Assembly (NCBI GenBank): GCA_951406725.2
Contig: OX597816.1
Coordinates: 64,294,001 to 64,358,000, forward strand
DNA from: Octopus vulgaris
Lineage: Eukaryota
DNA length: 64,000 nt
Reading direction: 5' to 3'
Part shown: positions 20,086-47,660 of the stretch, in pieces
How positions within the stretch are numbered: the stretch's first letter is position 1
Layout of the letters: every line of letters begins with the position of its first letter
The notes under the pieces: model-generated
Seen by the model: the letters and a program-made list of their open reading frames with translations, nothing else
Databases searched by the model: none
Told to the model about the DNA's origin: nothing
Made by a program: the position numbers and the translations under genes

Positions 20086-20445
<360 letters not shown>

Positions 20446-21502: not shown

Positions 21503-21865
21503 AAATCTATAATCAATATATATATATACAAAATCTATAATGTGCACCCTCTCGGGGGCAAATTATAGATTTTGTATACAAGTTCTTTCTCGAGATAGTT
21601 GTTATTTAGCGGACAGCGGTTTGGGGATCTGATATTGCCTTGTCTTTCTGGAGTGTTCTTTGTGTGTTCATTTTTATTGTGATTGAGTATTATTGACCCT
21701 ACATTGGGGAGGCAATTATAGCTAACTTTACCAGTATTTCTATTGAAGATCTTATGGTATTTGTGTGAATGTGGAAATTGGTTATATATATATATATATA
21801 TATTAAGAATTCGTAGCTATATAAGTAGTTACATTCATGCTATAAGGTGGGTTGAACTATAATAT

Positions 21866-22994
21866 TGTTACGAGGGGACCTCCGAAAACTGTACGGAATC
21901 CCTCAGACAGGCCCGACTCGATCAGCGAATGTTCTCGCCACGGAAACTCGTCAGAGAGGAGAGGAGAGACACAACAACCGCAGCAGCACAGAGGCACAGA
22001 GGCAAGGCAACAGAGAGAGACACCAAAAGAGGCAAAACGGCAACACTGGCTTATATTTAACAACTAGTTTATATGACAATCAATTACTACACATCAAATA
22101 CATTTAAGGCAAACAACAAATCAATGCATCATACGGGTATACCACAGATCAAAGCATTTAACAACATGCATGTAACAATATAACAGTGTTCAGTAACGAC
22201 ACAACAAGTCCAGATCAAATAATGTTCACGATACGTCACAGTCCAATCAGAACACTTCGATACATTATACAATGTTCGTATCACAACAACTCACGTTACA
22301 ATTCAACAAGTCCTTTACTGTTCTTTTCACTGTTCATTTCTTTTCACTGTCTCTTTACATCGTGACACGTATCAATACACAATCACATACCTTAATTCCT
22401 AACTGAATCGCCAGTGTCCCATTCTGCACTCATCTCTCTCTCAATACTGCTAAATCCAGCTTGCCAAACTCCTGCATCCCAACTTGCTTGCTCCTAAGAT
22501 TCCACCGCTTGCTCCTAAGATTGCACCTACTCGCTCTGACTTCCAGAATCCCACTGTGCTTCTTCGACGACCGGCTCCAACTGCCCAAAACCTCACCTCC
22601 TTGTCCTGACTTCCACTCCCTCATCTCCCTCTGTCTCTACCGCTCACACCCTCTCTAACTGCCCTGGTCCCTTACTGCCTATCTCTATCGCCTGCTGCCT
22701 ATCACCCTCTCATGACAGCTCTGCCATACTCTCTGCCTGTCCTTCTCTGCCCCCTCATCCTCTCTTACTGCCAATACCCTCTCCATCTGCTCTTAGATTC
22801 CTTACTCTATCTTTCTCACTACTTTTCTTCCTCTTCTTCAAGGGATGTCTAGAACGACCCCTAATCGACCGCACAAGGCCAGAAAGGTCCCATTAATCTC
22901 CCATTAAACAAAGGACTGTCACTTTTCTTCCAGACGTGCCGGCACCACACCCAAAGTGGGTCACCAAGAAACTGCACTTAGCCAAACTGTAACA
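21866..22994. mobile_element. Solo LTR (Gypsy-like, 1129 bp)
   Basis: TGTTAC...GTAACA ends; 4-bp TSD ATAT at 21862-21865 and 22995-22998. Removing it rejoins the host PLE frame (SKIL*FNPPYS). Confidence 0.88.
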
Positions 22995-24049
22995 ATATTT
23001 TACTCAGTCTGCATCTTCATGGTCTATTTATATTTGGTCCAATGTAATGTATGCTATTCGTGAAGTTGGACCCTGCTAATGCAGCATTATATGGGGTGGC
23101 TTTTCCAAAAGTGCCCCTGTCGACGGATAAATTGGAGACACGCATTTTGTTTAATTACTGCTGGTGGGCGGCTGGATCCTTTGTCTATGTAGGAGGGTTC
23201 TTCGCTTTGTTTTTGGTAGGGCTTAAATTTTCCTTAAGTTTCATCTTAATGCCTAGGAAGTTGACTTCTTTAAGGCTTGTACTAATTCTTAGGCCTAATT
23301 GGCTAAATATTTAACATTTTTACTGTGTACTACTCCCAGGCCATCTTCCCTGTACAAACTTACGTTAGCTCCTTTTATTTCTTTTATAAGGGCATCTATG
23401 ATATAAAGGCCTACAAGTTCAGCTATCTCTGCACAGTCATAGTACCCATTCCCACGTCAAATAACTCGTCTCCATTCATTTTTTTACCCAGTGGAAATTA
23501 TCATTGCGTTCATAGTTATGTCTATATCGGTATTTGTTATAGGGACATATGTTTTGCTAAATTCAAGTGCTTTCTTAAGCAAGCTTTTGGTGATCGATGG
23601 TTAGAACTCTACGATATCGAATTGTACAAATTTGTATTTGTGTTTATCTTCTATTTTTTAAACCATTCAATAATTGCACTACTACGTATCCATTGGGTAA
23701 GTTTTGAGTGTACTTTGATATGGCGAACAATAATTATCTAATATAGATTTACTAATAATTCCTATTTCACTTTTTATGGGATTTATTTATCTACAGCTAA
23801 GATTTTGCGTGAAATTGTTTTTATTGGACTTTCAGAGTTAAAAAAGGATTTCGTGAGATAAGCTTTTCTACTTTGTCTTCTATTTTAAAATTTGTGGCTA
23901 GATATTTTGCTTCTATATTAATAGAATTATAAGAGGTTGGGTTTATTTTCTTGCACGTTTTAATTATGTTGACGGTTAGTAGTTTGTTGTGTGTTTGGTT
24001 GTTTACTTCGTAAATATTTTTTGTTTTATCAGCTTTAATATGCATGTTC

Positions 24050-24251
24050 TTTTATTTATTTATTTTTGGTTTCAGTCATTTGACTGCGGCCATGCAGGAG
24101 CACCGCTTTTAGTCGAGCAAATCGACCCCAGGACTTATTCTTTGTAAGCCTAGTACTTATTCTATCGGTCTCTTTTGCTGAACCGCTAAGTTACAGGGAC
24201 GTAAACACACCAGTGTCAGTTGTCGAGCGATGTTGGTGAGGACAAACACAG

Positions 24252-24289
<38 letters not shown>

Positions 24290-24297
24290 ATACATAA

Positions 24298-24335
<38 letters not shown>

Positions 24336-24497
24336 GACGGGATTCTTTCGGTTTCCGTCTACGAAATCCACTCACAAGGCTTTGGTCAGCCCGAGCCTAT
24401 AGTAGAAGACACCTGCCCAAGGTGCCACGCAGTGGGACTGAACCGGGAACCATGTTGTTGGTAAGCCAGCTACTTACCACACAGCCACTCTTGCGCC
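24050..24497 (-). mobile_element. SINE family B full length, inserted in the PLE
   Basis: Complete family-B structure; atgttc duplicated at 24044-24049 and 24499-24504. Confidence 0.93.
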
Positions 24498-24944
24498 AAT
24501 GTTCGTTGATGTTTTGAAAGGTTTGATGTATGTCTGTAACGTGTGTTGGAACTTGTGGGATCTTTGGTTGAATTTTACATTTCTAACTAACTTTAAAGAC
24601 CGTCTTGAAATCTTTCTAGATCTTTAATATGTAGTGTGTTTTTATAAGATCTGAAACCGTAATTATCCCCCTGCATTAGGGATGCACGAAAAAATAGGTC
24701 TTCCATTTCATTTTCTCAGAAGTTTTCTGTTTTTGTCAATAAGATGGTTGATGTATACTTTCCTTGGTGGAATAGGAATATTTTTCAGTGATGTTATTCT
24801 TTCGTGTTTTTTTCCATGTTCGCTTTCACTGTTTAACCGATGTTTGTTGACATCAGAAGCTTAGACACGAAAATGTCGAGCGATGAAATGAGAGCTCAAC
24901 ACCGCATTGGTAGCTATATAATTTCTTTATTTGCAATTTAAAGC

Positions 24945-39182: not shown

Positions 39183-39288
39183 TAGTTTGATAGATAATTG
39201 GATACATACATACATACATATATACATATATATACACACACATATGTATATATATTTTATTAATAAAGTTGCAAAGACATCACCAAAA

Positions 39289-39322
39289 CTGTTACTCAGA
39301 GTTTCACGTTCCCGTTCATCGG

Positions 39323-39325
<3 letters not shown>
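39289..39325 (-). ncRNA. Minimal type-I hammerhead ribozyme motif (second copy)
   Basis: Minus strand TGT CCGATGA ACG-GGAA-CGT GAAA CTC-T-GAG TA ACAG; (TA)n abuts its 5' end. Confidence 0.72.
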
Positions 39326-39362
<37 letters not shown>

Positions 39363-39368
<6 letters not shown>

Positions 39369-39526
39369 GGTCCCGGGTTGAGTCGGGGTTAACCACAGTA
39401 AATAAGGTACTCAATACATTGCAGAGTAAATTAATTTATTTTATAGAAGGAGCTTCTACATGACTAGAACTGTTTCATTTGAATGAAACAGTTCTAGTCC
39501 TGTAGAAGCTCCTTCTATAAAATAAA
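39363..39526 (-). mobile_element. Fold-back cassette family 2 within (TA)n
   Basis: Near-perfect palindrome 39435-39526 plus a tail that matches 48760-48830 in the opposite orientation. Confidence 0.75.
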
Positions 39527-45879: not shown

Positions 45880-46050
45880 TCAAAATAAGCAATAAATATA
45901 TCCAAGGTAGTTATTTGTTGCTTATTTTGATTATAATCACCCCATTTGATTTATATGGATAATACCATACTAAATTCTGTTGCCTTTAACTTAAGTACCA
46001 TATTCATCTGAATCTAAATTTTGCTGAACTTATATATATATATATATATA

Positions 46051-46200
46051 CTTTATTTAAAGCAGCAGAAAATTCAACAAAACCTGTTACTCTGAGTTTC
46101 CCGTTGTCTTTCTGCTGCTTTAAATAAAGCATATTATTCTACCACTGGTATTTGAGTACTCTTTTTTCCACCTTGTTTCACATTTATGTGTTTACTCCGG
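46051..46200 (+). mobile_element. Fold-back cassette family 1 (second copy)
   Basis: ctttatttaaagcagcagaaa ... tttctgctgctttaaataaag plus the shared tail. The inverted arm contains the reverse complement of the hammerhead 3' half (46084-46100). Confidence 0.75.
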
Positions 46201-46336
<136 letters not shown>

Positions 46337-47479: not shown

Positions 47480-47505
<26 letters not shown>

Positions 47506-47542
47506 CCAAAGTGTAAGTACGTATCTCTCTTTCTCTCTCTCT

Positions 47543-47596
<54 letters not shown>

Positions 47597-47660
47597 AGAG
47601 AGAGAGAAAGAGAGATACGTACTTACACTTTGGTCTCTCTCTCTCTCTCTATATATATAT
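47480..47660. repeat. Palindrome centred on (TA)n
   Basis: (AG)n-accaaagtgtaagtacgtatctctctttc... mirrored as ...gaaagagagatacgtacttacactttggt-(CT)n. Confidence 0.9.

What the first reader, a model, noticed from the sequence alone, without database searches (positions are those of the whole stretch)
39255..39326. Second hammerhead copy: ribozyme conserved while its flank has diverged
Seen: the minus strand gives TGT CCGATGA ACGGGAACGT GAAA CTCTGAG TA ACAG. Across this span it differs from 20255-20291 only at the variable N7 position (C/T) and the stem III loop base (A/T). The downstream flank (ttttggtgatgtctttgcaactttattaataaaa) is clearly different from the first copy's (gtattgttgaattctctgctgctttaaataaag). 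Inference: two subfamilies keep the CCGA core under selection, so it is not a one-off decay mutation.
Basis: partly seen in the sequence, partly recalled or inferred. Interest (0 to 1): 0.75.

Follow-up and report, generated by a model that had tools for sequence, protein, structure and literature searches.

The report
Altered hammerhead core in Penelope retrotransposon
This is the cut-short end of a jumping gene whose hammerhead-shaped RNA motif carries an unusual core letter in thousands of copies, while its oldest and its intact branches carry the normal letter, so the odd letter was likely tolerated rather than needed and fast self-cutting is probably not what the element depends on.

Summary
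Confirmed: 39325-39289(-) differs from 20255-20291 at two bases only. Both are truncated 3' ends (pLTRs) of one Hydra-clade Penelope-like retrotransposon lineage: 6,998 exact motif copies in the genome, 3,050 with the CCGA (U4C) core.

Not supported: the flanks are homologous and begin with the far arm of stem I. Copy 2's N7=T is most likely CpG decay. C4 itself shows no sign of selection: an older sister family, 74 of 76 motifs in outside relatives, all 26 published rows and the subfamily with intact 726-aa ORFs have CUGA. The path is likely U to C to U, and C4 lasted no longer than neutrality allows.

None of 30 sampled copies starts at the cut site, so the copied RNA is uncut or re-joined, which would explain tolerance of a weak core. 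Cleavage is untested; one key paper (Lunse 2017) was unavailable. The scan earlier noted Hydra-clade ends with altered cores elsewhere in this genome (e1-8666049).

The parts
39289..39325 (-). Type I hammerhead motif of copy 2: stem I remnant TGT, core C3-C4-G5-A6-U7-G8-A9 (C4 at 39321), stem II A.U + 2 bp + GGAA loop, GAAA, palindromic stem III ACTC-T-GAGT, predicted cut after GUA between 39293 and 39292, stem I 3' strand ACAG
   Evidence: assigned to old subfamily B (64 of 71 identical, best of 7 subfamilies)
39278..39288 (-). First 11 nt of the 'flank': decayed far 3' arm of stem I, whose 5' partner (ATCACAA in subfamily B) was lost by truncation
   Evidence: A fuller B copy folds an 11-bp stem I with this arm; copy 2 does not; subfamily majorities
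39255..39277 (-). Rest of the pLTR end up to the short terminus (AATAAA then TA repeat), likely the nearer of two reverse-transcription start sites
   Evidence: The same two termini (about 36 and 107 nt past the cut site) recur across copies; two-start-site model from PMC11167929
39326..39364 (.). (TA)n target tract at the 5' truncation point; microsatellite also follows the 3' end (below 39254)
20233..20396 (+). Copy 1: younger A4-subfamily pLTR end with full stem I, CCGACGA core at 20258 and the 70-nt tail; a short inverted piece lies just upstream (about 20203-20232)
46046..46204 (.). Third copy of the same lineage in the window: head-to-head pair, both arms truncated inside or past the ribozyme, core strand absent

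Best explanation
The stretch is a 5'-truncated, decaying 3' end of a Hydra-clade Penelope-like retrotransposon inserted in a TA repeat, and its CCGA core is an inherited variant of the hammerhead that the lineage likely tolerated for a long time and later lost again. Shown: the motif lies in the pLTR of elements with a 726-aa RT plus C-terminal GIY-YIG ORF in tandem units of about 3,430 bp; subfamilies B, C, A3, A4 and G (and the 4 D copies, less cleanly) have C4; family O and subfamily Y have U4; the motif as a whole changed more slowly than its flanks between B and A4; copies end about 36 or 107 nt past the cut site and run upstream across it. Inferred: the order O (U4) to B...G (C4) to Y (U4); purifying selection acts on the hammerhead fold in the few master elements, not in genomic copies; reverse transcription starts downstream of the ribozyme and reads through it, so its template is uncut or re-joined RNA, and a slow core (U4C) costs little; cleavage, if any, happens in dimers through the palindromic stem III.
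For: ORF link: endonuclease fragments upstream of C-type pLTRs; CCGA motifs downstream of endonuclease hits and intact ORFs with CTGA motifs. Copy numbers. Subfamily majorities and decay levels. Conservation test 1/38 vs 28/114, p=0.001. Copies picked by flank decay at least as fast inside the motif as outside: B 11.4% vs 8.5-8.7%, C 4.7% vs 2.2-3.9%. CTGA in old C4 subfamilies is symmetric CpG decay: TG 10, CA 14, CG 70. Family O: U4 in 12 of 13, 22.7% decayed, flank closest to B in 10 of 11. Outside relatives: U4 in 74 of 76 descriptor hits and 26 of 26 Hydra rows of File S2, PMC8557442. Nucleotide tree ladder C-A3-A4-G-Y; third positions C-G 30.5%, G-Y 7.8%. 0 of 30 copies start at the cut site. 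PMC11167929 passages: catalytic mutants of a PLE hammerhead do not affect insertion in vitro.
Against: The endonuclease protein tree with distant outgroups rooted inside Y (support 16-40 on those nodes), and an outgroup-state test was neutral (14 sites for C, 16 for Y; P0004 6 vs 10). The direction therefore rests on copy decay and on family O, which is only 13 pattern hits. pLTR decay does not separate Y from G or A4. One O-like inverted arm reads CCG (L345). The excess conservation is not significant against the tail alone (1/38 vs 8/67, p=0.10) and is absent for C vs Y (5/38 vs 21/142, p=0.52), so a non-catalytic constraint on the whole pLTR end could contribute. No Rfam hammerhead model matched copy 1, copy 2 or a Y copy. 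All CUGA single mutants had low activity in a deep scan (PMC9901934 passage), so the C4 form may be simply inactive.
Confidence: 0.7

Rival explanations
1. One reading: C4 is positively maintained, because a weakened core or a C4-specific contact is needed in these subfamilies.
For: C4 persisted across at least five subfamilies and about 0.6 neutral substitutions per site although it sits in a CpG. U4 returned only after the 10.1-11.1 pair had become a mismatch (A.U, then A.G, then A.A) and loop III had become A, which lets CUGA pair with stem III in the predicted monomer fold.
Against: Neutral survival over that path has probability 0.22-0.55. O, Y, outside relatives and published Hydra elements use U4. 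O has U4 mostly with loop U or C, so no competing helix.
Confidence: 0.15
2. The C4 motif is catalytically dead. The 38 nt are conserved for another role (promoter, protein binding, template fold-back), and Y's U4 is a chance CpG transition.
For: The tail is about as conserved as the motif. CUGA single mutants show low activity. Naiad elements thrive without canonical hammerheads (PMC8557442 passages). Copies read through the cut site.
Against: All six changes from B to Y fall at position 4 or at sites a hammerhead tolerates (N7, loop II kept as GNRA, 11.1, loop III twice), while C3, G5, A6, G8, A9, GAAA, UA and the stem III palindrome never change. The far stem I keeps pairing through sequence change. 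A U4C viroid hammerhead still supports infection (PMC3088659 passage).
Confidence: 0.12
3. The similarity of the two copies only reflects recent common ancestry or gene conversion, with no selection on the motif at all.
For: Individual copies decay neutrally. Only 5 of 22 flank-picked B copies keep all ten core bases, so copy 2 is a lucky survivor that was noticed because it is intact.
Against: The test on subfamily majorities removes copy-level luck and still gives 1/38 vs 28/114 (binomial p=0.0003; Fisher p=0.001). The 3' UTR of C and Y is only about 65% identical over 450 nt, against 33 of 38 in the motif.
Confidence: 0.03

Closest known systems
Hydra clade of C-terminal EN+ Penelope-like elements (Craig et al. 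2021; bioRxiv 10.1101/2021.04.23.441226 passages and section 11; PMC8557442 passages, supplement Files S1-S2)
   Same: RWK and DKT motifs, C-terminal GIY-YIG without CCHH, CxCX5C linker in older copies, (TA)n targets, tandem and inverted insertions, tail, type I hammerhead in the pLTR. Hydra-2_aMil has the same stems I and III (ctgt...acag, actc-N-gagt).
   Different: All 26 Hydra rows of File S2 have CUGA; this lineage has CCGA in at least five subfamilies. Stem II has only 2 firm pairs. The unit is about 3.4 kb (published ones mostly under 3 kb). The linker is CxF in G and most Y copies. By eye it is a different family from Hydra-1_Obim (different protein and ribozyme stems; no alignment run).
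PLE hammerheads with short palindromic helix III (Cervera and de la Pena 2014, PMC4209133; main text parts 1-2 of 4, supplement file 2 searched and part 2 read, file 1 not searchable)
   Same: Type I topology, palindromic stem III that favours dimers (self-duplex -7.4 to -7.9 kcal/mol), thousands of solo truncated copies, opposite-strand pairs, low expected activity.
   Different: The core variant described in the parts read is U3-A8. CCGA occurs twice in supplement file 2, neither time in a core.
U4C viroid hammerhead variant (cited in Perreault et al. 2011, PMC3088659; passages and section 8)
   Same: Same core change; reported to lower activity in vitro yet allow infectivity.
   Different: There a rare viroid variant; here the master state of a retrotransposon lineage with at least 3,050 exact genomic copies and a later likely reversion.
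Poseidon element PAc of Anolis (Frangieh et al. 2024, PMC11167929; passages)
   Same: Two termini separated by a tail; reverse transcription starts downstream of the hammerhead; no RNA reads begin or end at the cut site.
   Different: Different PLE clade; canonical core; the ribozyme overlaps the ORF start there, while here it ends about 170 nt before the first Met of the ORF.

Membership tests
Hydra-clade PLE | Single ORF, RT followed by C-terminal GIY-YIG-like endonuclease | tested here: met
   P0003, 726 aa: FDIINFYPSI, YRDDGL, then GVVY...YTG near the C-terminus (read by eye). No Pfam hit for P0003 itself; one homologue carries PF01541.
Hydra-clade PLE | DKT in place of DKG, and RWK motif | tested here: met
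   NSDKTRN and RLRWKAFF in P0003; features
Hydra-clade PLE | CxCX5C linker | tested here: met
   CNCKDGTSC-type linker in most C and A4 copies; second Cys is Phe in 7 of 7 G copies with cover and 8 of 12 Y copies
Hydra-clade PLE | [quoted passage not shown] | tested here: met
   No Cys between GVVY and YTG in P0003
Hydra-clade PLE | (TA)n insertion, pLTR tandems, inverted truncated copies, tail | tested here: met
   (three motifs 3,430 bp apart in L123)
Hydra-clade PLE | Placement in the Hydra clade of an RT tree with named references; no IFD | not tested
   Trees used unnamed homologues only
Type I hammerhead ribozyme | Three stems around the core in type I order with UH cut site | tested here: met
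   Descriptor scan with shuffle control; stem I pair probability 0.88-1.0 for three of the four core-side pairs in five fuller copies; not met in truncated copy 2 itself
Type I hammerhead ribozyme | Consensus core C3-U4-G5-A6-N7-G8-A9 / G12-A13-A14 | tested here: not met
   U4C in copies 1 and 2 and subfamilies B-G; met in O and Y
Type I hammerhead ribozyme | Match to an Rfam hammerhead model | tested here: not met
   No hammerhead family at E up to 10 for copy 2, a canonical-core Y copy or copy 1. The miss for Y shows the models do not fit this short-stem layout even with U4.
Type I hammerhead ribozyme | Self-cleavage after GUA | not testable with these tools
   Needs an in vitro assay; only assembled contigs were available, which cannot show RNA ends
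Non-LTR retrozyme | Short non-coding tandem units, each with a hammerhead | tested here: not met
   Copy 2 is a solo 71-nt end; the tandem units seen are 3.4-kb coding elements

The most novel reading that the evidence does not exclude
This lineage keeps its hammerhead deliberately slow, because its reverse transcriptase must read across the cut site. It first crippled the core (U4C) and returned to U4 only after stem II had lost its first pair and loop III had gained an A that lets the core strand pair with stem III. The seven subfamilies would then be a dated natural series of compensating brakes on one ribozyme.
Probability: 0.15. Interest if true: 0.75.

Novelty: new variant of a known kind. 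Interest (0 to 1): 0.45.

Why it matters
Whether hammerhead cleavage matters for Penelope-like elements is stated as open in PMC8557442 and PMC11167929. Here one lineage likely went from the canonical core to U4C, made thousands of copies through at least five subfamilies, and went back, while the rest of the motif stayed fixed. That gives a short natural allelic series (O, B, A4, G, Y) with an intact partner ORF, which can be assayed directly. It also shows that CUGANGA descriptors miss about 44% of this lineage's exact copies (3,050 of 6,998). The locus itself is a dead 71-nt fragment.

Tried and rejected
Rfam: no hammerhead family among the 150 listed of 277 window-wide hits or in three short scans.
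Pfam: 0 families for P0003.
Rooting by distant proteins: the tree rooted inside Y with support of 40 or less and the state test gave 14 vs 16. Outgroups were picked for likeness to a Y protein and rows were anchored on it, so I set this aside as uninformative. L090 was left out (62 residues), and L132 carries a G/A-type motif but a C-like endonuclease (mixed locus).
No B-type copy with a linked ORF was found, so B is placed by pLTR sequence only.
Expression: no RNA holder listed. Contigs of four runs under four organism codes show both T and C at position 4, which shows presence only.
'N7=T marks a subfamily' rejected for copy 2; it does mark G and Y.
A 'fixed 5' end 345 nt upstream' was the query copy's own truncation.
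Literature: searches for U4C (1 paper), CCGA-type core strings, PLE core mutation and subfamilies (0 papers), octopus + Penelope + hammerhead and the viroid variant found no report of a U4C core in a PLE. Lunse et al. 2017 is not held. A CYGANGA descriptor with C/T degeneracy is used for virome hammerheads in PMC13481778 (passages). Look-ups of earlier scan notes by sequence and by words returned nothing.

Full report
OBSERVATION. The minus strand at 39325-39289 and the plus strand at 20255-20291 carry the same 37-nt motif and differ only at N7 (T/C) and the loop III base (T/A). The pattern occurs twice in the window and never in 100 shuffles. A loose type I hammerhead descriptor finds just these two sites, against 2 hits in 30 shuffles. 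The downstream flanks are diverged but homologous: 24 of 36 aligned columns are identical, and 0 of 2000 shuffles score as high. Copy 2 starts inside stem I, directly after (TA)n, and ends at AATAAAA before another microsatellite.

WHAT IT IS. The window lies in a 2.8-Gb genome that holds 2,342 exact copies of the GGAA-loop form. A pattern open at five positions has 6,998 exact copies, of which 3,050 have C4. Exact matching favours young copies, so these are lower bounds. Walking upstream from copies led through a 3' UTR to endonuclease fragments. A protein search then gave many copies, some with open frames of 723-735 aa. Locus L123 has three motifs 3,430 bp apart flanking two 726-aa ORFs. 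[quoted passage not shown] These are the marks of the Hydra clade. Copy 2 is therefore a truncated pLTR end of such an element.

SUBFAMILIES. I aligned 243 distinct segments that span the motif (out of 400 BLAST segments), dropped 26 from repeated or duplicated loci, and grouped 183 of the remaining 217 by flank; loop II was used only to split A4 from G, and 34 stayed unassigned. The groups are B (30), D (4), C (44), A3 (12), A4 (9), G (37) and Y (47). The majority core is CCGACGA in B through A4 (D less cleanly: 1 of 4 copies intact), CCGATGA in G and CTGATGA in Y. Loop II goes GGAA to GCAA, position 11.1 goes U to G to A, and loop III goes U to C to A. Copy 2 fits B best (64 of 71) and copy 1 fits A4 (68 of 72). 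Non-CpG decay in the downstream flank is 9.6% in B, 6.9% in D, 3.2% in C and 0.6-2.1% in the rest. Samples came from different searches and favour copies near the queries. The ORF tree gives the ladder C-A3-A4-G-Y. Of the loci with an open frame over 700 aa fetched, all 8 carry the Y motif.

IS CCGA DECAY? No. In B copies picked by flank alone, positions 4-5 read CG 9, CA 6, TG 5, other 2 of 22. Pooled over B-A4 they read CG 70, TG 10, CA 14. This is symmetric CpG decay from a C4 master. Copy 2's N7=T is most likely the same kind of decay, since the B majority has C7.

IS THE MOTIF UNDER SELECTION? In master elements, probably yes. B vs A4 majorities differ at 1 of 38 motif sites and 28 of 114 flank sites (p=0.001); B vs C at 0/38 and 25/123 (p=0.0006); B vs Y at 5/38 and 35/124 (p=0.04). 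Against this, the contrast with the tail alone is not significant (p=0.10), and C vs Y shows none over the short flanks (p=0.52), although their UTRs are only about 65% identical. Apart from position 4, changes fall only at sites a hammerhead tolerates. The first 11 nt of the 'flank' are the far arm of stem I, which keeps 10-12 pairs in B, C, G and Y despite sequence change. In genomic copies there is no sign of selection: the motif decays at least as fast as the flanks.

IS C4 ITSELF SELECTED? No evidence for it. Among 77 metagenome loci of related elements (40-49% identity), the descriptor gave 76 hits, all on the ORF strand, 74 with U4; ten rounds of shuffles gave 5 hits in all. Many of these loci are the same families from related samples. 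The one CCGA hit has a different, minimal layout upstream of an ORF. All 26 Hydra rows in File S2 of PMC8557442 have CUGA, including Hydra-2_aMil with identical stems I and III. In the host, a pattern left open at positions 4-5 found a family O (13 of 39 hits by loop II, one ambiguous; the other 26 are point variants of the GGAA families). It has U4 in 12 of 13, a U.U pair at 10.1-11.1 like many outside relatives, 22.7% decay, and flanks closest to B in 10 of 11 fetched copies. This roots the ladder at the B end and gives U4 to C4 to U4. Rooting by distant proteins did not confirm this: it fell inside Y with support of 40 or less, and the state test was 14 vs 16. One O-like arm reads CCG. The C4 interval spans about 0.6 neutral substitutions per site (0.24 + 0.39), so a neutral base survives with probability 0.55, or 0.22-0.37 at CpG rates. 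U4 was one frequent transition away throughout, so any advantage of U4 was probably small.

HOW IT LIKELY WORKS. Copies end at two fixed points about 36 and 107 nt past the predicted cut, which matches the two internal start sites shown for an Anolis element (PMC11167929 passages). Of 30 copies picked by the sequence just after the cut (30 of 40 matches fetched; 40 of 262 candidates scored), 28 continue upstream across the cut, 2 start 16 and 21 nt after it, and none starts at it. The template is therefore uncut or re-joined RNA (inference). In the Anolis system, catalytic mutants did not affect insertion. A slow ribozyme would cost little under these conditions, which fits tolerance of U4C. 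U4C lowers activity in vitro yet supports viroid infection (PMC3088659), and CUGA single mutants had low activity in a deep scan (PMC9901934). Stem III is a palindrome that pairs poorly within one molecule (probability 0-0.3 in fuller copies) but forms a self-duplex of -7.4 to -7.9 kcal/mol, as expected for dimer cleavage in tandems (PMC4209133). In Y, U4 plus loop A lets the core strand pair with stem III in the predicted monomer; this is the basis of the novel case and is only a prediction.

KNOWN AND NEW. Hammerheads in Hydra-clade pLTRs are known. I found no report of a U4C core as the master state of a PLE lineage, or of its reversion, in the searches. Lunse et al. 2017, which surveys small PLE hammerhead variants, was not available, file 1 of the Cervera supplement could not be searched, and bioRxiv supplements are closed; any of these may hold a prior report. 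Other papers seen: PMC6765202, PMC6155905, PMC6962438 and PMC13481778 as passages, and bioRxiv 10.64898/2026.07.22.740005 part 1 of 5. An earlier scan note (e1-8666049) reached a similar reading for another piece of this genome and led me to Hydra-1_Obim, which I checked in the supplement.

VERDICT. The locus is a dead fragment of a known element class. The lineage-wide core variant and its likely reversion are a new variant of a known kind with a clear bench test. Interest 0.45.

Noticed in passing
window 39365-39525 (-): End of a second, unrelated hammerhead-bearing element in the same TA tract, just 5' of copy 2: a head-to-head pair cut off in stem II, plus tail. Fuller copies elsewhere have a canonical core, CTGA[A/T]GA...GAAA CAGT[A/T]CTAG TC.
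   Followed up: partly
window 21571-24791 (-): Old, broken ORF of a different Hydra-like family (34-44% identity to P0003 in five pieces), interrupted by other repeats.
   Followed up: partly
L123:1029-1045 and many loci: Head-to-head copies often fold back at a 4-nt palindrome just 5' of stem I: about 10 of 39 close pairs have a 23-24 nt spacer around CTAG. The same place reads TTAA in subfamily C and GATC in B, so a palindrome persists while the letters change; may be chance.
   Followed up: partly
P0003 residue 579; G and Y loci: The second cysteine of the CxCX5C linker, invariant in 39 of 39 outside homologues, is Phe in 7 of 7 G and 8 of 12 Y copies and Cys in 4 Y copies on different branches, yet these copies still sit in (TA)n. 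This bears on the idea that the linker guides TA targeting.
   Followed up: partly
L266:1938 and L288:2400: U3-A8 covariant cores (TTGA.AA) in pLTR position of two metagenome relatives.
   Followed up: no
L219:2668: A CCGAAGA minimal hammerhead upstream of a Hydra-like ORF in a marine metagenome contig; could be a second natural U4C or a single decayed copy.
   Followed up: no
L146, L150, L154-L156, L170, L171; L014-L016: Sets of near-identical loci that share host flanks, several on contig C31, suggesting recent segmental duplications or carriage inside another repeat.
   Followed up: no
window 47487-47652: Perfect inverted repeat of about 165 bp around a (TA)n core, with GA-rich arms; it gives spurious miRNA hits.
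   Followed up: no
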